Shown: positions 55,994-64,000, numbered from the stretch's first letter. The stretch: 64,000 nucleotides of DNA from a virus (IMGVR_UViG_3300021978_000001:64001-128000), one strand, 5' to 3'. Numbers and translations: made by a program. The notes: a model not told the origin generated them from the letters alone.

Positions 55994-56038
55994 CTCTTGA
56001 GACTGACACTAAGAATGAATGCGAACCCTGAAGGAAAG

Positions 56039-56110
56039 TGACCGTGGGGGGAATCGAACCCCCAACCATGGCTTTTAGAGAGCCTTGCTCTGCCGTTGAG
56101 CTACACGGTC
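56039..56110 (-). tRNA. Amber suppressor tRNA (anticodon CUA)
   Basis: GACCGTG-TA-GCTC AACGGCA GAGC-A-AGGCT CTCTAAA AGCCA-TGGTT-GGGGG TTCGATT CCCCC-CACGGTC-A. Confidence 0.92.
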
Positions 56111-56213
56111 ATGTGTGATGGAAGGTGTCTTCTAGTGTTTGCCGGACCAGAAGCAAGCGTATAAGCCAAAGCAAAGTACGATTCACCTTCCACCACAAAG
56201 GTGGAGACAGATA

Positions 56214-56241
56214 GGTACATCCCCGCAGGTGCGGGGAGCCT
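56214..56241 (-). CRISPR. Solitary type I-E-like repeat
   Basis: AGGCTCCCCGCACCTGCGGGGATGTACC; 21/28 to the array repeat with hairpin intact. Confidence 0.7.
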
Positions 56242-56338
56242 CCAACCTGATTCCTGTCCCGGCATCTCCGGCTTCCCTGGACAGGATGAACGTACCTTAC
56301 CCCAATGTTGGGAGCGTTGTCAAGCTGACCTACGCATT

Positions 56339-58600: not shown

Positions 58601-59308
58601 TCAGTTCGATAAAAACTGATCTTTTTGTCGAACGATCTCGCGCGCGATATGCACCGCGAACGCCACCGGCTTGATCACCTTGCACCCATAACGGGGCGAT
58701 TCGGAGAGCATCTCAGGGTCGTACTCATTGAGGCACTCATAGAACTTGTCCTCGCTGTCGATCGCGTGCCACAGCTCGAACCAATCAGGCTCGGAAAGCT
58801 CCTCCTCTTCGTCCAACTCCTCGCCCTCTTCGAGATCATCGAGCAGTTCCTTGTGTGCGGCAACCTCGTGATCCCACCAATCCAGGATGTCATGCGCGGC
58901 GAGCTGTCCGTCATATGCATAGGGAGAGCGCACGGGGTTGTTCCCACAGTGATACTTCTCTTCGAGGTAGCGACCCCATGCATGCTGGTCGATGAAGCGC
59001 GCGGCATCCCAGACATCCGTGCCGCGATACCGGAAACGCATGCAGCCAAACGACCAGGTATCGACGTAGATGTAGCCGTTCTTGATGTAGAACTCGCTTC
59101 CGGTCGAGAGAGATCCCTGTGAGAGCGTGATCACGGTCCCGTATGGGCCTTCCTTGACCTTGGTGATGGGGTACTCGCCTTGAAAGGTCGGGAGCACTTC
59201 AGCGTCCGCGTGCGAGCGCAGGCGGGTGAGGTATTCATTCTCGGACATACATAACTCCTGAACGCAGATGAAACGTAAAAACGGCGTGTCGAACAAGGGG
59301 TGGGTCAT
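58601..59308 (-). CDS. Hypothetical protein
   Basis: 235-aa acidic ORF. Confidence 0.7.
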   Translation of the reverse strand: MTHPLFDTPFLRFICVQELCMSENEYLTRLRSHADAEVLPTFQGEYPITKVKEGPYGTVITLSQGSLSTGSEFYIKNGYIYVDTWSFGCMRFRYRGTDVWDAARFIDQHAWGRYLEEKYHCGNNPVRSPYAYDGQLAAHDILDWWDHEVAAHKELLDDLEEGEELDEEEELSEPDWFELWHAIDSEDKFYECLNEYDPEMLSESPRYGCKVIKPVAFAVHIAREIVRQKDQFLSN

Positions 59309-59514
59309 GGATAAAGCCTCCAGGAATTTCTGCCTGGCTTCGCCTTACACGCAGAGTGGCTACGTGTAAGGTATAGGAGGTTGCACGGGATTGAACCGTG
59401 CTATCGCTCATGTCAGCCCGAAGGCACCACGCGCGAATTATCCGAGAACCATAAACCCGGCATTTCGACACGCCGTTTGGTCTCCTGAATGTCGATGTGG
59501 TTGCATGCGAGGCG

Positions 59515-59542
59515 GGACCATCCCCTCATACGAGGGGAACAT
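59515..59542 (-). CRISPR. Solitary type I-E repeat with compensatory stem change
   Basis: Plus strand GGACCATCCCCTCATACGAGGGGAACAT; a G-C pair is replaced by T-A. Confidence 0.88.
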
Positions 59543-59578
59543 ATTTCTCGCACCATTCGCAATGGAGACCGTTCTCAG

Positions 59579-59650
59579 TGGAGCTTGAGAGACTCGAACT
59601 CTCAATTCAACCTTGCAAAAGTCGTGTGATCCCAGTTTCACCAAAGCCCC
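59579..59650 (-). tRNA. tRNA-Ala(TGC)
   Basis: G3:U70; loop TTTGCAA. Confidence 0.85.
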
Positions 59651-59653
59651 AAA

Positions 59654-59738
59654 AGAAGTGAGGGTGGTCAAGGTGGTGCATATGGGGGTCCTTGTTTGCT
59701 ATAAGATAACCCATGTGCGGCATACCACCCCCACTTCT
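59654..59738 (-). ncRNA. Y/YrlA-like family RNA, short form lacking the tRNA module (unit A)
   Basis: 14-bp terminal stem, GG-TATG/CTTG-ACC internal loop, GGGTTATC motif. Confidence 0.6.
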
Positions 59739-59762
59739 GACATCTTCCTGGGAAGAAGATAG

Positions 59763-59835
59763 TGGAGCCAGGGGGTCTCGAACCCCCGACCTCGACGCTG
59801 CCAGCGTCGCGCTCTCCCAACTGAGCTATGGCCCC
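59763..59835 (-). tRNA. tRNA-Ala(GGC)
   Basis: Canonical cloverleaf; loop CTGGCAG. Confidence 0.95.
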
Positions 59836-59855
59836 GTTCGTACTATGAACGCCCC

Positions 59856-60218
59856 TCAACCGAGGGTCATTTCCCCATCACAGAGTTCGTCGATCAGCGC
59901 ATCGAGTTCCAGGGGGACTTTGCCCTCATAGAACTCGATGCGCCTTTCCTGACCGACAGCATCTCTCCACACCACCTGGTATCTCATACCATCACAGATA
60001 GAGAAACCAGGTGGAATCGGAATCTTGGGGTCGATAGGTGGAGGAAGGGTGAGAGTTTCGAGGCCCTCACCCTGGTCCAATATACCTTCCAACCGTTCAA
60101 GCATCTGGAGAGATGCAGGAGAGAGGTTCGTCTTGAGCGAAGAAAAGGTCTGCTTCAAGAGAGGAAACAACCCGCCTTCGCGGATGTACTGCACTTGAAG
60201 ATGCTTGTCTTTGCTCAT
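59856..60218 (-). CDS. Emfourin-like (M4 protease inhibitor-like) protein
   Basis: YIREGG...L..IL...D.MRY.V......I.F.E...P.EL..LIDEL pattern recalled for emfourins. Confidence 0.5.
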   Translation of the reverse strand: MSKDKHLQVQYIREGGLFPLLKQTFSSLKTNLSPASLQMLERLEGILDQGEGLETLTLPPPIDPKIPIPPGFSICDGMRYQVVWRDAVGQERRIEFYEGKVPLELDALIDELCDGEMTLG

Positions 60219-60240
60219 CAGTTGAACCTCGCTATGTAAA

Positions 60241-60379
60241 TCTGAGCCGAACAAGGTGTGGATCTGGGGGTTTAGCGTGCTACCATTACACTACCCTGGG
60301 GGTTAACCCAGGGCCGGGACTCGAACCCGGACCGCCTGATTTGCATTCAGATAACCCATCTCCGGCATCTCGGCTCAGA
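60241..60379 (-). ncRNA. YrlA-like RNA with permuted tRNA module (unit B)
   Basis: T arm CCGGG-TTCGAGT-CCCGG, then CCCTGGG-ttaacc-CCCAGGG, then D arm; 10-bp terminal stem. Confidence 0.75.
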
Positions 60380-60409
60380 ACTGTGCTCTCTCTTGTTACG
60401 AGAGAAGAT

Positions 60410-60750
60410 CAAAGGTGTGTCCACCAAGGCTGCACCCGAGTAAGGGTATATAGGTGGCATCGTTGTGTGGCCGCCGTCTACGCGCCAACTCGTGGCCTAT
60501 CGCCGTGGAGAAGGTTCGCGCACCGGGCTGGCGGGCGCCCTCATGATCGAGATTGCTCTCGACCTTAGCCTTGAGCCTTCGTGGGGAAGGGACTCTCAAG
60601 GGAGGGTGAGCTTGGCCTGACAGGTGTAACCTCGATAGGAGACTACCCCGTTTCGCTAGACCCCTCACGGGGATTCACTACCTTCGGACCGTTATTGGGA
60701 TAACCCACCTACGGCAGCTCAGGCACAGCTCTTGATGAACACACCTTTGG
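60410..60750 (-). ncRNA. Large structured RNA of unknown family containing unit C (60608-60731)
   Basis: About 19-bp long-range closing stem, GNRA-capped hairpins, no credible ORF. Confidence 0.55.
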
Positions 60751-60892
60751 AGACCTCGGAGCTTCCGAGCGCGCACCACCCCGCTAAAGATAAAGCGGCT
60801 CGGTGCTCCGAGATCCCAAAGAAAAGTCACGGTCAAAGTGATGTATATGGAATATTCTATCTCCGATAATCCATACACGGCATACCGTAACA

Positions 60893-60973
60893 AGCGAGCG
60901 ACGGGACTCGAACCCGCATGCGTTAAAGCGACAGCTTGGAAGGCTGTTGTCCGACCAGTTGGACCTCACTCGC
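60893..60973 (-). tRNA. tRNA-Gly(TCC) with an enlarged variable arm
   Basis: Loop CTTCCAA, G1C2G3/U73, 13-nt variable region. Confidence 0.8.
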
Positions 60974-61172
60974 GCATACTCGTCTCTCCGAGCTGTCACC
61001 CGGTCTGTCCCAGGTTCGTCATGCGTCACACTCTCGGGCCGCATCGCCGCACGAGGGGATCTTCAGATCGCGTGACCCCTCGTGAATCACATGCGACCTC
61101 CGGCGTCTGGTCTCGCCGGGCCACGGGATTGTGCACGCGCATCTGCGCGGATGGAATCCTCGGGCGTCAGGT

Positions 61173-61315
61173 ATTGCGTGGTCAAACGGAGCGTAACAGG
61201 AGTGTTGACTCGTGCTCTGCCGGTTGAGCTAGAAGTGCCACTCGTCATGACACAACCCGGGACTCGAACCCGGAACCACAAGTTTGGATAACCCTATCAC
61301 TGCATACCACGCAAT
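61173..61315 (-). ncRNA. YrlA-like RNA with permuted tRNA module (unit D)
   Basis: 9-bp terminal stem with GG-TATG/TTG-ACC; T arm precedes an imperfect acceptor stem and D arm. Confidence 0.7.
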
Positions 61316-61437
61316 CATGGTCCTTCTCCCTAAGATCTCCCTGAGAAGAAGGTTTGGGTTGGATGAACCTCTCACTGACACCTTGATCGACCGAAATTGA
61401 CGACAACGACAGACAAGAGGATGAGAGGTTCATCCAG

Positions 61438-61512
61438 CGACTCCTACGGGATTTGAACCCGTGGTCTCCTGCGTGACAGGCAGGCGTCCACTCCAGACTG
61501 GACCGAGGAGCC
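61438..61512 (-). tRNA. tRNA-Asp(GTC)
   Basis: Loop CTGTCAC; G73. Confidence 0.95.
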
Positions 61513-61589
61513 GAAAGTGCTCTATCCGAGCGCTTTTGTATGATACCATGGAAACCTTATCCTGGAAACCAAGGTAGCGTCAAGTACCA

Positions 61590-61661
61590 ATCCGGGAGCA
61601 GGGCTCGAACCTGCATTGCGAGGATCAAAACCTCGTGTCCTGCCAATTAGACGATCCCGGA
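61590..61661 (-). tRNA. tRNA-Gln(TTG)
   Basis: U1:A72; loop TTTTGAT. Confidence 0.9.
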
Positions 61662-61720
61662 GTAATCGTGGCCCAAGCACTGCTTCGTGCAGTGAACATC
61701 CCGAGTGCTTGAGCCACGAT

Positions 61721-61924
61721 TCACGCATGTTCGGTGCCCGTGGCTTCCTCGATAAACGAGGAAATCACATGACGTTGAACCACCGCGTGGGGTGTCGCTT
61801 GTGACTGTGACCACACCTCGATAGTGCTCATCGAAACCTCGAAACGATCGGCAAGCTCTCTGCTGCTATGCAATTCTCGCAAGTAATGCAAGGCGAACAG
61901 GAAGAGTTTATGCGTCTCATTCAT
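61721..61924 (-). CDS. Small HTH protein
   Basis: SSRELADRFEVSMSTIEVW. Confidence 0.7.
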   Translation of the reverse strand: MNETHKLFLFALHYLRELHSSRELADRFEVSMSTIEVWSQSQATPHAVVQRHVISSFIEEATGTEHA

Positions 61925-62007
61925 CGAAACCTCGATCAGTGTCGTGTCGAGTGCAGGGTCCGAAGTCAGCGAACACCGCTTCTCCCTGCACGAGCAGGGA
62001 AGATAGA

Positions 62008-62152
62008 GTACACCGGATAAGGGATGAGAGTGGATGTTTTTGGCGCTTTACCACTAAGCTACACAGCCGTAAACGATGGCTGTGGGTTGGAATCGAACCA
62101 ACCGATCTCCCCGTTAAGAGCGGATAACCCACGGCTCTTCAGCCCGATGTAC
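62008..62152 (-). ncRNA. YrlA-like RNA with permuted tRNA module (unit E)
   Basis: T arm GTTGG-TTCGATT-CCAAC, CACAGCC-9 nt-GGCTGTG, D arm; 9-bp terminal stem. Confidence 0.75.
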
Positions 62153-62154
62153 AG

Positions 62155-62227
62155 TACCACAGGTGGGGGTCGAACCCACAACATCCTGGTTTTGAACCAA
62201 GCGCCTCTTCCATTGGGCCACTGTGGC
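62155..62227 (-). tRNA. tRNA-Leu(CAA) lacking the long variable arm
   Basis: Loop TTCAAAA; 5-nt variable loop; A73. Confidence 0.8.
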
Positions 62228-62234
62228 AGGCGGA

Positions 62235-62315
62235 GTTGCATACGTCAAGGGTTTTCTGCTGGGCAGGATCGCCACCGTCGTGGATGGATCTGCCTGACCT
62301 TTACACCTATGCAAC
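62235..62315 (-). ncRNA. Hairpin RNA, possible short member of the Y-like family (unit G)
   Basis: GTTGCATA/TATGCAAC terminal stem; AAAACCCTTGAC tail motif. Confidence 0.4.
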
Positions 62316-62421
62316 AACCCTGGAGTTCCCATCTCTCCGGTCTCTACGCGTCGTCACGCACCCTGTAGGAGCTACCCCACAAGATACAGCCTCGTGACGT
62401 GTGAGGCTACGCGCTGGGAAA

Positions 62422-62494
62422 TCGACATGCCAGGACTCGAACCTGGACCACCTCTTTCGTAGAGAGGCACTCTATCCAATTAAGTTACACGTCG
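62422..62494 (-). tRNA. tRNA-Arg(ACG)
   Basis: Loop CTACGAA. Confidence 0.93.
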
Positions 62495-62609
62495 AGAATG
62501 CCTCCCAGTGTACGGTGTCGAGCACACCGAGAGGACTTTTCACTGTGGTCGTCGAGCGATCTCAGTGAGAGCGTTATGCCACACCTTACGAGAAGGTGTC
62601 AAGACAATT

Positions 62610-62870
62610 TCATTTTTTCTTGAGGTCAGCGTCGGTGAGGCTCTTTTTCTGCCAAGCCGCCTCTTCCTCTTTAGCGCATCGCTTGCTGTACCGCCACGCG
62701 ATGGCATGGTCAATACGATCAAGCTCCTCACGCTCCTCGACGGTCAAGGTGCCTTGTGCTTCGAGCGCACGTTGTTGAGCTTTGAGCCTTTCGATGTGTT
62801 TCCGATCTGCATCTTCATCAGTCATGCTTACCTCGTCTGAAAAGTACCCTGCCGTAAGTTCGCTTCTCAT
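62610..62870 (-). CDS. Hypothetical protein
   Basis: GAGGG RBS; 86 aa. Confidence 0.6.
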   Translation of the reverse strand: MRSELTAGYFSDEVSMTDEDADRKHIERLKAQQRALEAQGTLTVEEREELDRIDHAIAWRYSKRCAKEEEAAWQKKSLTDADLKKK

Positions 62871-62944
62871 GCGCCCTCGTCTTAAAGGCGCACAGAATAC
62901 CCCTCCCCAGAGGTAAAGTTTAGAATGATGAACCCGACAGGGTA

Positions 62945-63017
62945 TAGCGGGTGAGGGAATCGAACCCCCAACTGTAGGTCATGAGCCTACCGAGATATAC
63001 CGTTTCTCCAACCCGCA
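62945..63017 (-). tRNA. tRNA-Met(CAT), initiator-like
   Basis: 1:72 mismatch; loop CTCATGA. Confidence 0.85.
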
Positions 63018-63051
63018 ACAAATGAGTGTGCTGTTCCTGTGCCCCGGCGCC

Positions 63052-63195
63052 GGACCATCCCCGCATACGCGGGGAACACGCTCCACAACACACTCGGGCG
63101 CCTGGGTATACCCACGACGCAGATCCGCTTGACGGTGGAGCGACAGGCGGAAGTGGTACGGCAAGGCGAACCATCCCCGCGCACGCGGGGAACAT
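63052..63195 (-). CRISPR. Two type I-E repeats (63168-63195, 63052-63079) flanking an 88-nt insert
   Basis: 63052 copy is near-identical to the array repeats; followed by 34 nt and then tRNA-Met. Confidence 0.88.
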
Positions 63196-63235
63196 GGACC
63201 TCACGGATGCATCGACGCGAGATCTCACCATACCA

Positions 63236-63309
63236 TAGCTGGACGCGGACTCGAACCGCGAACCTCAGCCTTATCAAGACTGCGCTCTAACCTGTTGAGC
63301 TATCCAGCT
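63236..63309 (-). tRNA. tRNA-Ile(GAT)
   Basis: Loop TTGATAA. Confidence 0.93.
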
Positions 63310-63314
63310 TCAAG

Positions 63315-63403
63315 TGCTTGCCCCTGGACTCGCACCAGGATCTCTCGCGTGATGGCGAGCAGGTTACATACGGCTACCATGGATACCTTGACCCCAGACA
63401 AGC
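63315..63403 (-). tRNA. Atypical/pseudo tRNA-Tyr(GTA)
   Basis: 7-bp acceptor, D stem, long variable arm; C33 and T loop TGCGAGT are non-canonical. Confidence 0.5.
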
Positions 63404-63407
63404 AAGT

Positions 63408-63554
63408 GTACATGAATCGAACAAGGTAGTGAGCAAGGGGTTTTTACGAGTGCTACCGTTACACCACATGTCCGGGTGGACATGCTGGGACTCGAACCCA
63501 GACCACGCGCTCCGCTGGCGATAACCCTTATCTCGGTCATCTCGATTCATGTAC
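63408..63554 (-). ncRNA. YrlA-like RNA with permuted tRNA module (unit F)
   Basis: 13-bp terminal stem; T arm CTGGG-TTCGAGT-CCCAG, CATGTCC-accc-GGACATG, D arm. Confidence 0.8.
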
Positions 63555-63556
63555 AG

Positions 63557-63630
63557 TAGGGCTGACAGGAGTCGAACCTGCGACCATCTCCGTGTAAGGA
63601 AGCTGCTCTGACCAACTGAGCTACAGCCCT
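63557..63630 (-). tRNA. tRNA-Val(TAC)
   Basis: Loop CTTACAC. Confidence 0.88.
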
Positions 63631-63666
63631 GTGATGTGCTTGCTCGGATAAGGGAAGTGGCGAGCG

Positions 63667-63757
63667 GCGCCATCCCCGCATGCGCGGGGAACACTAAATC
63701 TGAACAAACACAAGCAGAGCGCCCGAGATGAACCATCCCAGCATATGCAGGGAAATC
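63667..63757 (-). CRISPR. Two type I-E repeats (63730-63757 degenerate, 63667-63694) with a 35-nt spacer
   Basis: Followed by 36 nt and then tRNA-Val. Confidence 0.8.
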
Positions 63758-63926
63758 AACGTATGCCTTTCGCGCTCTGTGGTGAAAGGTAGCTGGGTAC
63801 CGTTGACTCTCCCGTAGGAGCGGCCCCTGCTTGCCTCTCACGCTTTGTTATGCGTGCGTTCCTATTCACTTGTCAAAGATCTTGAGTCGTTGGCGTTGTG
63901 CGTTGCACCGTCGCCGTGACATCAAC

Positions 63927-63955
63927 CGTTATGCCTTGTTCAAATCATGCTGTCA
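63927..63955 (-). promoter_or_regulatory. Sigma70-like promoter upstream of the RNA cluster (TTGACA-17-CATAAC)
   Basis: Read on the minus strand. Confidence 0.6.
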
Positions 63956-64000
63956 AGCATTTTCTTCCTGAACCGGGCAAAAAGTTCGATCGGAGTGCAT

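What the first reader, a model, noticed from the sequence alone, without database searches (positions are those of the whole stretch)
59654..63554. Expanded family of circularly permuted tRNA-mimic RNAs (YrlA/Y-RNA-like) interleaved with tRNAs
Seen: four 139-147 nt units (60241-60379, 61173-61315, 62008-62152, 63408-63554) read 5' stem, GGGTTAT(C), variable hairpin, T arm with TTCGA loop, acceptor 3' strand, 4-9 nt loop, acceptor 5' strand, D arm, AAC(C) tail, 3' stem. The acceptor stem is loop-closed and the anticodon arm is replaced by a long end-to-end helix. Terminal and acceptor stems differ in sequence but still pair (covariation). An internal loop is conserved: CGA-GATG/CCTTGT-TCG, GG-TATG/TTG-ACC, or G(G/A)-GCTG/CCT(G/T). 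Units at 59654, 60608 and perhaps 62235 keep the helix but lack the tRNA module. Known: bacterial YrlA Y RNAs have this topology and bind Ro60/Rsr; UUGACC resembles the Ro-binding strand. Inference: 6-7 diversified copies in one phage, with no TROVE/Rsr gene in the window, could act as decoys for host Rsr-PNPase or for tRNA-recognising defence nucleases and toxins.
Basis: partly seen in the sequence, partly recalled or inferred. Interest (0 to 1): 0.9.

Follow-up and report, generated by a model that had tools for sequence, protein, structure and literature searches.

The report
Phage Y-RNA gene array among tRNAs
A 437-kb phage carries at least eight small RNA genes of the Y-RNA (YrlA) type scattered through its tRNA operon, most likely partners of the phage's own Ro60 protein encoded 171 kb away; phage Ro60 with Y RNAs is already known, but an array this large and varied is not.

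Summary
On the minus strand of 59.3-63.6 kb lie eight units that share one "handle". The handle is a terminal stem, an AUGCC or GCUG / CCUUG internal loop, a 9-bp helix, and GGGUUAU.

- **Four units** (60241-60379, 61173-61315, 62008-62152, 63407-63555) carry the permuted, acceptor-closed tRNA-like domain of YrlA.
- **Two units** are bare handles (59654-59738, 60826-60891).
- **Two units** carry other cargo (59279-59478, 60410-60749).

All four tRNA-like units hit Rfam YrlA, but below its threshold (24-32 bits against 69).

The genome (437,490 bp, terminal repeats) encodes an intact Ro60 (TROVE plus vWA).

A covariance model built from these units finds full-length homologues 0.15-2.8 kb from Ro60, on the same strand, in six other phage contigs (two near-identical). 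It finds 2-6 further copies among tRNAs in three huge phages, and nothing in 661 kb of unrelated viral DNA. Across 18 sequences, 93% of pair cells are paired and 35 of 38 pairs show double changes.

Verdict: a divergent, expanded lineage of phage YrlA-type Y RNAs, a new variant of a known kind. This scan has noted similar arrays in other phages. Function is inferred, and expression is untested.

The parts
59279..59478 (-). U0: Y-type unit of 200 nt. It has a 15-bp terminal stem, an AUGCC / CCCCUUG loop and a GUCGAAAUG motif. The cargo has a T-arm-like hairpin and further hairpins, but no D arm.
   Evidence: Descriptor hit. Fold. Model R2: 37.2 bits, E 1e-7.
59654..59738 (-). U1: bare-handle ('mini') Y RNA of 85 nt. 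It has a 15-bp stem, an AUGCC / ACCACCUUG loop, a 9-position second helix, and GGGUUAUC followed by a short apical loop. tRNA-Ala(UGC) starts 3 nt downstream.
   Evidence: R2: 45.8 bits. R3: 77.2 bits. Spacing. The strain variant at 59715 turns a C.A mismatch into U-A.
60241..60379 (-). U2: full YrlA-type unit. It has an 11-bp stem, AUGCC / ACACCUUG loops, a GGA-GA-UGGG helix, UUAU, a 5-bp hairpin with the 7-nt loop AUGCAAA, a T arm, a 7-bp loop-closed acceptor stem, and a D arm.
   Evidence: Rfam YrlA: 32.3 bits over model positions 1-114. Hand-drawn structure checked, -56.1 kcal/mol. Seed of model R1. ARAGORN miscalls part of it as tRNA-Cys.
60410..60749 (-). U3: handle with about 250 nt of unidentified structured cargo. 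It has a 30-bp terminal helix with one bulge, a GCUGCC / UACCCUUAC loop, the helix GUAGGUGG/CCACCUAU, and GGGUUAUC.
   Evidence: The cargo has no Rfam match at E<=5. R2 and R3 do not detect it, so membership rests on the descriptor and motifs alone.
60826..60891 (-). U4: bare-handle Y RNA of 66 nt. It has an 8-bp stem, an AUGCC / UCACUUUG loop, a perfect 9-bp helix, and GGAUUAUC. It starts 1 nt after tRNA-Gly.
   Evidence: R2: 25 bits. R3: 63.3 bits, E 4e-13. Strain variants turn U.G into C-G and CUUUG into CCUUG.
61173..61315 (-). U5: full YrlA-type unit without the extra hairpin. It has a 10-bp stem, an AUGC / UCCGUUUG loop with UUGACC, a 9-bp helix, a further 6-bp stem, a T arm, a 10-position acceptor-like stem with a UU/UU mismatch, and a D arm.
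   Evidence: Rfam YrlA: 25.3 bits. R1: 33.4 bits. R2: 75.2 bits.
62008..62152 (-). U6: full YrlA-type unit with the GCUGAA / CCCUUAU loop variant and a 7-bp acceptor stem. It starts 1 nt after tRNA-Leu.
   Evidence: Rfam YrlA: 23.6 bits. R1: 45 bits. R2: 108.3 bits. Spacing.
63407..63555 (-). U8: full YrlA-type unit with a 15-bp stem, an AUGAC / CUACCUUG loop and a 7-bp acceptor stem. It starts 0 nt after tRNA-Val.
   Evidence: Rfam YrlA: 24.8 bits over model positions 1-114. R1: 79.4 bits. R2: 117.3 bits. Spacing.
62235..62320 (-). U7?: doubtful unit. It has an 8-bp terminal stem and CCCUUGAC on the 3' side, but no AUGC/GCUG loop and no GGGUUAU.
   Evidence: Fold z-score is only -1.9. Not found by R1, R2, R3 or the descriptor.
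56163..56274 (-). Um1?: weak candidate. It has a 9-bp stem with 2 G.U pairs and an AUGCC / GUACUUUG loop. The cargo includes a CRISPR-repeat-like hairpin. It has no GGGUUAU.
   Evidence: Descriptor hit. Fold. R1 gives only about 8 bits here.
63556..63630 (-). tRNA-Val(UAC), directly abutting the 5' end of U8.
62154..62227 (-). tRNA-Leu(CAA), 1 nt upstream of U6.
60893..60973 (-). tRNA-Gly(UCC), 1 nt upstream of U4.
59578..59650 (-). tRNA-Ala(UGC), 3 nt downstream of U1.

Best explanation
The units are genes for YrlA-type Y RNAs, the noncoding RNA partners of Ro60/Rsr, and belong to a divergent lineage found in Ro60-encoding huge phages.

**Shown:**
- Each RNA pairs its two ends into a stem that carries the family's Ro60-binding-type internal loop.
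- Four units add a circularly permuted tRNA-like domain with a closed acceptor stem.
- Two units are the handle alone, and two carry other structured cargo.

**Inferred:**
- The RNAs are transcribed with the tRNAs as one long precursor. They are cut free by the enzymes that trim the neighbouring tRNAs (RNase P, RNase Z or equivalents), because three units start 0-1 nt after a tRNA and one ends 3 nt before a tRNA.
- The handle binds the phage's own Ro60 (genome 295,265-296,911).
- The variable module tethers that ring to different host tRNA-binding or RNA-decay factors. PNPase is the precedent; the phage encodes none. Alternatively, the module gates access to the Ro60 cavity.
- The panel of RNAs thereby retargets RNA decay or counter-defence during infection.
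For: **Match to the YrlA model.** All four tRNA-like units match Rfam YrlA RF02553, and two match over the whole model. The alignment lines up stem, AUGC loop, 3+4-bp helix, T arm, acceptor stem, D arm and CUUG loop.

**Features named by Chen 2014 (PMC4201824).**
- The 5' motif is present as GNCGAA-type or a variant: GUCGAAAUG in U0, GCCGAGAUG in U2.
- YUAY is present as UUAU.
- V, T, AS and D elements occur in the permuted order.
- The Levitt 15:48 pair reads A:U in nine and G:C in three of 14 scored sequences (G:C in U6 only with a sixth T-stem pair; one D arm reread by eye).

**Partner gene.** The genome encodes an intact Ro60: TROVE plus vWA_Ro60, E 1e-118 to human/Xenopus Ro60 and 4e-110 to D. 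radiodurans Rsr.

**Association with Ro60 elsewhere.**
- Model R2 finds full-length homologues on the Ro60 strand, 0.15-2.8 kb from Ro60, in six other IMG/VR contigs (L120, L122, L123, L124, L125/L126).
- It finds 2-6 further copies among tRNAs in G002, G003 and G004.
- It finds nothing at E<=1 in 661 kb of unrelated viral loci.

**Covariation.** On 18 distinct sequences, 93.1% of cells are paired, against 60% when shuffled and about 40% when slid. 35 of 38 pairs have double changes, and all 7 helices are supported.

**Bare handles.** They recur in G002 (near Ro60) and G004.

**Strain variants.** Those visible in related strains fall in loops or repair pairs.

**Precedent.** Thermus phage phiLo Ro60 binds two phage Yrl RNAs and host PNPase (PMC12135203).
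Against: - No unit reaches Rfam's YrlA gathering score (best 32.3 against 69).
- The array lies 171 kb from Ro60, not within the 4 kb used as a criterion by Chen 2014.
- The 5' motif departs from GNCGAAN0-1G in most units (GGU-AUGC, GG-GCUG).
- There is no expression or binding evidence. The one RNA run from the source sample held none of the sampled words.
- Alignment A6 was fitted to the model's structure, so the pair counts lean towards it.
- U3 and the two candidate units are not detected by the covariance models.
Confidence: 0.78

Rival explanations
1. The units are tRNA decoys that act without Ro60. They soak up host anticodon nucleases or other tRNA-targeting defence proteins and so protect real tRNAs.
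For: - The domain keeps the tRNA core.
- In at least 7 of 16 full-length family members, the hairpin before the T arm has a 4-5-bp stem, a 7-nt loop reading (C/A)U-NNN-(A/G)A, and a 3-5-nt linker. That is anticodon-arm geometry.
- ARAGORN miscalls tRNA-Cys in U2 and tRNA-Ser in a G004 unit.
- The units sit in a tRNA operon of a phage with 33 ARAGORN calls, one of them inside U2.
Against: - The conserved handle, the bare-handle units and the non-tRNA cargo are unexplained by a pure tRNA decoy.
- The pseudo-anticodons include A34 triplets (AUU, AUG, AUA, AAC) that do not copy normal bacterial tRNAs.
- U5 and U8 lack such a loop.
- Homologues sit beside Ro60.
Confidence: 0.08
2. The units are circularly permuted tRNA genes, or a general circularisation cassette. 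The terminal helix would be excised and its ends ligated, and the acceptor loop then opened, yielding real tRNAs or circular RNAs. This is the scan's other reading of the same stretch.
For: - The topology matches permuted pre-tRNAs of Cyanidioschyzon (discussed in 10.1101/312249).
- Three units have 7-bp acceptor stems, and M. smegmatis YrlA with a 7-bp stem is cut by RNase P.
- U2 has a GCA loop and a U after the acceptor 3' strand.
Against: - The genome has no RtcB, no Rnl2-type ligase and no splicing endonuclease.
- Two units have no cargo at all.
- The handle has conserved loops matching YrlA rather than a bulge-helix-bulge motif.
- The hairpin, where present, is intact rather than split.
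- No unit resembles a resident tRNA beyond the T arm.
Confidence: 0.04
3. The stems are only processing or insulating signals of the tRNA operon, for example double-strand-specific RNase sites, with no function in trans.
For: - Long terminal helices of 8-30 bp lie directly against tRNA ends.
- No own promoters or terminators stand out.
Against: - Sequence-conserved loops and UUAU are kept across phages whose Ro60 is only 39-47% identical.
- The tRNA-like tertiary pair covaries.
- Homologues occur singly next to Ro60 and outside tRNA arrays, for example L123, which has no tRNA nearby.
Confidence: 0.06

Closest known systems
YrlA (Y RNA-like A; Rfam RF02553) of Salmonella, M. smegmatis and Ro60-encoding mycobacteriophages (Chen et al. 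2014, PMC4201824; structure in 10.1101/312249)
   Same: - An end-to-end stem with a 5' CGA(A/G)-xUG motif opposite CUUG.
- YUAY after the second helix.
- An optional V hairpin.
- T arm, loop-closed acceptor stem and D arm in permuted order.
- Levitt-pair covariation.
- A genome that encodes Ro60.
   Different: - Scores are only 24-32 bits against a threshold of 69.
- The array is 171 kb from Ro60 and inside a tRNA operon.
- There are eight or more units instead of one or two.
- It has its own conserved GGGUUAUC and an A-rich 3' joiner.
- The hairpin often looks like an anticodon arm.
- Bare-handle and non-tRNA-cargo versions share the same handle.
Thermus phage phiLo Ro60 with Yrl1 and Yrl2 (NAR 2025, PMC12135203)
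   Same: A phage-encoded Ro60 with more than one phage-encoded Y-like RNA. The handle is a stem, bulge, stem with a CGAA-type motif. The host PNPase is recruited because the phage has none.
   Different: phiLo has two RNAs directly upstream of Ro60. Here the array is large, diversified and distant. No sequence comparison with Yrl1/Yrl2 was made.
Bas63 gp130, a Ro60-like protein that counters the ppl defence, upstream of 'tRNA' genes suspected to be Y RNAs (PMC11482910)
   Same: A Ro60-type phage protein associated with a tRNA array that may hide Y RNAs. This is a counter-defence precedent.
   Different: gp130 is only structurally Ro60-like, whereas this phage has a bona fide TROVE plus vWA Ro60. 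No defence test exists for this phage.
YrlB of Salmonella and other Y RNAs without a tRNA-like domain
   Same: U1 and U4 keep the Ro60-type handle and lack the tRNA module.
   Different: No sequence relation was tested. The phage minis are clearly derived from the same handle as the full units.
Circularly permuted tRNA genes of Cyanidioschyzon merolae
   Same: The 3' half comes before the 5' half, the acceptor is closed by a loop, and the ends are paired.
   Different: There is no bulge-helix-bulge junction, no endonuclease or ligase in the genome, and no split anticodon loop.

Membership tests
YrlA-type Y RNA (Chen 2014; Rfam RF02553) | Score at or above Rfam's gathering threshold (69 bits) | tested here: not met
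   Best scores are 32.3, 25.3, 24.8 and 23.6 bits. Homologues next to Ro60 in other phages also miss it. This is an operational cut-off, not a biological feature.
YrlA-type Y RNA (Chen 2014; Rfam RF02553) | 5' and 3' ends pair into a stem bearing the Rsr-binding-type motif GNCGAAN0-1G | tested here: inconclusive
   The stem is present in all units with strong covariation. The motif is close in U0 (GUCGAAAUG), U2 (GCCGAGAUG) and U8 (AUCGAGAUG), and in the relatives (CG[A/G]G-CCG). It is replaced by GGU-AUGC or GG-GCUG in U1, U4, U5, U3 and U6.
YrlA-type Y RNA (Chen 2014; Rfam RF02553) | Conserved YUAY at the start of the variable region | tested here: met
   UUAU follows GG(G/A) in U1-U6 and U8, and in most homologues.
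YrlA-type Y RNA (Chen 2014; Rfam RF02553) | T arm, loop-closed acceptor-like stem and D arm in that order, with tRNA tertiary pairs (Levitt 15:48 covarying) | tested here: met
   Met in U2, U5, U6 and U8. The 15:48 pair reads A:U in nine and G:C in three of the 14 scored sequences (G:C in U6 only with a sixth T-stem pair; one D arm reread by eye), and G18 G19 and UUCRA are kept. Not applicable to U0, U1, U3 and U4.
YrlA-type Y RNA (Chen 2014; Rfam RF02553) | Encoded within about 4 kb of a Ro60/Rsr gene on the same strand | tested here: not met
   In this genome Ro60 lies on the + strand at about 295.3 kb, and the array lies on the - strand at about 123.3-127.6 kb. The criterion is met by homologues in L120, L122, L123, L124 and L125/126.
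YrlA-type Y RNA (Chen 2014; Rfam RF02553) | Bound by Ro60/Rsr in vivo or in vitro | not testable with these tools
   Needs EMSA or co-immunoprecipitation.
Metazoan Y RNA (Rfam RF00019) | Match to the Y_RNA covariance model | tested here: not met
   No Y_RNA hit at E<=10 in 59000-64000. Only the UUGACC 3' strand in U1, U4 and U5 recalls it.
Circularly permuted tRNA genes | Junction processed by a splicing endonuclease and ligase, giving a tRNA with a functional anticodon loop | tested here: not met
   The genome has no EndA, RtcB or Rnl2-type ligase. Two of the four full units lack an anticodon-like loop. The products themselves were not testable.

The most novel reading that the evidence does not exclude
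The handle is a modular docking adaptor. Ro60-encoding huge phages would use one Ro60 ring with a whole panel of handle-borne cargo RNAs. The panel includes near-complete tRNA mimics that have an anticodon-arm look-alike, bare handles that could act as gates or competitors, a roughly 250-nt structured RNA, and possibly a CRISPR-repeat-like hairpin.

In addition, the Ro60 mRNA leader carries a circularly permuted copy of the same internal loop: CCUUGU-UCGUG hairpin-CACGA-GCUG inside an 8-bp stem, at genome 295,191-295,240. Ro60 could therefore titrate its own synthesis against its Y-RNA load.
Probability: 0.22. Interest if true: 0.75.

Novelty: new variant of a known kind. Interest (0 to 1): 0.55.

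Why it matters
- Ro60 and Y RNAs are conserved from bacteria to humans, yet what the variable Y-RNA modules recruit is still largely open.
- One phage offers eight natural variants built on one handle: four tRNA-like, two bare, two with other cargo. Comparable sets occur in several other huge phages.
- This gives a ready-made comparative series for asking which part binds Ro60 and which part selects the effector.
- These RNAs escape Rfam's YrlA threshold and cause false tRNA calls (a 'tRNA-Cys' here and a 'tRNA-Ser' in a relative). The tRNA counts of huge phages are therefore slightly inflated, and their Y RNAs go unannotated.
- A Ro60-like protein of phage Bas63 counters a defence system. These RNAs are thus candidates for the RNA half of a phage counter-defence or RNA-decay device.

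Tried and rejected
- **Viral DNA pattern scan.** An exact scan for ATGCCGN5GGGTTATC in viral contigs gave 115 loci. None carried the stem and 3' motif, and the five large-contig matches I folded showed no unit. They are chance matches.
- **Rfam on relatives.** At its gathering thresholds, Rfam found only tRNAs and tmRNAs in 12 Ro60 loci of other phages.
- **MAFFT alignment.** Aligning the four full units misplaced U6. I therefore seeded a model from U2 alone with a hand-checked structure and iterated.
- **Handle-only model R3.** It finds the bare handles but not the cargo-bearing units, so it could not settle U3, U7 or Um1.
- **Permuted Ro60-leader motif.** A regex for it found no clear counterpart in the other Ro60 loci. 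A loose version hits about 14 places in this genome, so the leader observation stays post hoc.
- **Expression.** No listed holder of this DNA is an RNA run, and the one metatranscriptome from the source sample held none of the words.
- **Promoter and terminator consensus scans.** These were at the level of shuffled sequence.
- **Origin from resident tRNAs.** The best local scores are about 40% of the maximum, so there is no recent donor.
- **Gene searches in the genome.** RtcB, Rnl2-type ligase, splicing endonuclease and RNase PH/PNPase domains are all absent.
- **U3 cargo.** No Rfam match at E<=5.

Full report
**What is there.**

The stretch 59.3-63.6 kb is a minus-strand RNA operon with 10 Rfam-confirmed tRNAs. 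Between them lie units that all share one handle:
- a terminal stem of 8-30 bp formed by the two ends;
- an asymmetric internal loop, with 5' AUGCC (or AUGAC, AUGC, GCUG) opposite 3' (A)CACCUUG (or CUUUG, GUUUG, CCCUUA);
- a second helix of about 9 positions, often 3 bp, a small internal loop, then 4 bp ending in GGG;
- then UUAU(C).

The catalogue:

| Class | Units |
|---|---|
| Doubtful or weak | 62235-62320, 56163-56274 |

It really runs 60410-60749, with a 30-bp terminal helix and about 250 nt of cargo that matches no Rfam family.

**More than chance.**
- 7 of the 18 minus-strand GG[GA]TTATC sites of the 437-kb genome fall in these 4 kb.
- A stem-plus-loop descriptor gives 34 genome hits against 7-16 in Markov shuffles, and nine are clustered here.
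- A model built from U2 alone recovers U8, U6, U1, U5 and U4.
- The iterated model R2 recovers them genome-wide and also finds U0. It finds nothing full-length elsewhere in the genome.

**What it is.**

Rfam's YrlA model aligns U2 and U8 end to end and U5 and U6 through the tRNA-like core. Stem, AUGC loop, 3+4-bp helix, T arm, closed acceptor stem, D arm and CUUG loop all fall in register. The scores, 24-32 bits, are well under the 69-bit threshold.

The features by which Chen et al. 2014 described YrlA are present:
- a CGA(A/G)-type motif at the end of the 5' stem strand, exact in some units and altered in others;
- YUAY;
- an optional V hairpin;
- T, AS and D elements in permuted order;
- a covarying Levitt pair, which reads A15:U48 in nine and G15:C48 in three of 14 scored sequences (in U6, G:C only if the T stem is read with a sixth pair; one D arm was reread by eye).

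**The partner protein.**

The window is part of a 437,490-bp virus record with terminal repeats. That record encodes one TROVE protein with a Ro60 vWA domain at genome 295,265-296,911. It is full-length, with E about 1e-118 to human and Xenopus Ro60 and 4e-110 to Deinococcus Rsr.

The genome has no RtcB, Rnl2-type ligase, splicing endonuclease or RNase PH/PNPase domain.

**Evidence from other phages.**

Thirteen IMG/VR contigs encode Ro60 relatives at 39-47% identity.
- Rfam finds no YrlA there at threshold.
- R2 finds full-length matches on the Ro60 strand, 0.15-2.8 kb from the gene, in L120, L122, L123, L124 and L125/L126.
- Whole-record searches show further copies among tRNAs: 5-6 at E<1e-3 in a 405-kb phage (G002), four in a 215-kb phage (G003), and two plus two bare handles in a 199-kb phage (G004).
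- G002 has a layout like this genome, with the array near 129 kb and Ro60 near 297 kb.
- As a control, R2 finds nothing at E<=1 in 661 kb of unrelated viral loci.

On the 18 distinct sequences:

| Measure | Value |
|---|---|
| Pair cells that are standard pairs | 93.1% |
| Same, shuffled control | 60% |
| Same, slid controls | about 40% |
| Pairs with changes on both sides | 35 of 38 |
| Helices supported | all seven |

The alignment was fitted to the model, which inflates these figures somewhat. The margin over the slid controls is nonetheless large.

**Population data.**

Related strains in marine metagenomes cover the region at about 96% identity. The listed differences crowd into spacers. 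The six listed variants that fall inside units are loop changes or pair-improving changes:
- C.A to U-A in the second helix of U1;
- U.G to C-G in the stem of U4;
- CUUUG to CCUUG in U4.

Only 40 of 285 differences were listed.

**How it probably works.**

The following steps are inferred. U8, U6 and U4 begin 0-1 nt after a tRNA 3' end, and tRNA-Ala begins 3 nt after U1. No promoters or terminators stand out. So the RNAs are probably cut out of a tRNA-Y RNA precursor by tRNA-processing enzymes.

By analogy with Deinococcus, Salmonella and Thermus phage phiLo, the handle should bind the phage Ro60. The variable module should tether or gate it, with host PNPase as the precedent partner. A Ro60-like protein of phage Bas63 counters the ppl defence, so counter-defence is a plausible purpose.

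**What is new, and what is not.**

Phage Ro60 with Y RNAs has been known since 2014, in mycobacteriophages, CcrColossus and phage G, and phiLo has two. This scan has also reported Y-like arrays in tRNA operons of Felix O1-type phages.

New here:
- the size and diversity of the set on one handle;
- its separation from Ro60;
- its recurrence in uncultivated huge phages;
- its invisibility to Rfam's threshold;
- a hairpin with anticodon-arm geometry (4-5 bp, a 7-nt (C/A)U-NNN-(A/G)A loop, a 3-5-nt linker) in at least 7 of 16 full-length members. This geometry makes ARAGORN call false tRNAs.

**A lead outside the window.**

The Ro60 mRNA leader (genome 295,191-295,240) folds into an 8-bp stem. That stem encloses a 6-bp hairpin flanked by UACCUUG on the 5' side and CUGC on the 3' side. 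This is the handle's internal loop in circularly permuted form, including the closing G.U pair and an 11-mer identical to U8.

It could be an autoregulatory Ro60 site.

Noticed in passing
Outside the window: genome 295,191-295,240 (L001:1346-1395), 25 nt upstream of the Ro60 start codon: The Ro60 leader is an 8-bp stem enclosing a UUCGUG/CACGAG hairpin flanked by UACCUUG and CUGC. This is a circularly permuted copy of the Y-RNA internal loop, with an 11-mer identical to U8. It may be a Ro60 autoregulatory site.
   Followed up: partly
window 59517-59540, 63056-63080, 63172-63196, 63670-63695, 63733-63755 (read on the + strand): Solitary type I-E-like CRISPR repeat hairpins (CCCCGC-loop-GCGGGG with a GGTCC-type tail on the RNA strand) are woven between the tRNAs. 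In related metagenome contigs these sites join to different 27-36-nt inserts, as in real repeat-spacer arrays of co-occurring hosts.
   Followed up: partly
window 60306-60380 (-): ARAGORN calls a tRNA-Cys(GCA) here. It is the 5' half of unit U2 (handle, hairpin, T arm), not a tRNA. Rfam's tRNA model gives it only 20.7 bits. A G004 unit is likewise miscalled tRNA-Ser(GCU).
   Followed up: yes
window 60470-60700 (-), inside U3: About 250 nt of strongly structured cargo, with GNRA-capped hairpins and a nested CCUUGAG/CUCAAGG helix, has no Rfam match at E<=5. Its identity is unknown.
   Followed up: partly
window 62325-62420 (-): A structured 95-nt stretch lies just downstream of tRNA-Arg, with an acceptor-5'-strand-plus-D-arm look. 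R1 gives a partial hit of 23.5 bits spanning the tRNA's T arm and this stretch. It is unassigned.
   Followed up: no
window 56038-56110 (-): A tRNA with a CUA anticodon (amber suppressor type; ARAGORN labels it Pyl) scores 67.6 bits on the tRNA model. It lies 52 nt downstream of the weak candidate unit Um1.
   Followed up: no
window 59513-59645 and 63115: Related strains replace 65-131 nt next to a CRISPR-like repeat with 230-650 other letters, and carry a 28-nt insertion at 63115. The spacers of this operon are hot spots of strain variation, while the units are conserved.
   Followed up: no
L144:5347-5858 (G004, a 199-kb Ro60 phage): A bare-handle Y RNA lies 14 nt from a phage tmRNA gene, and Ro60 sits in the same tRNA/tmRNA cluster.
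   Followed up: no
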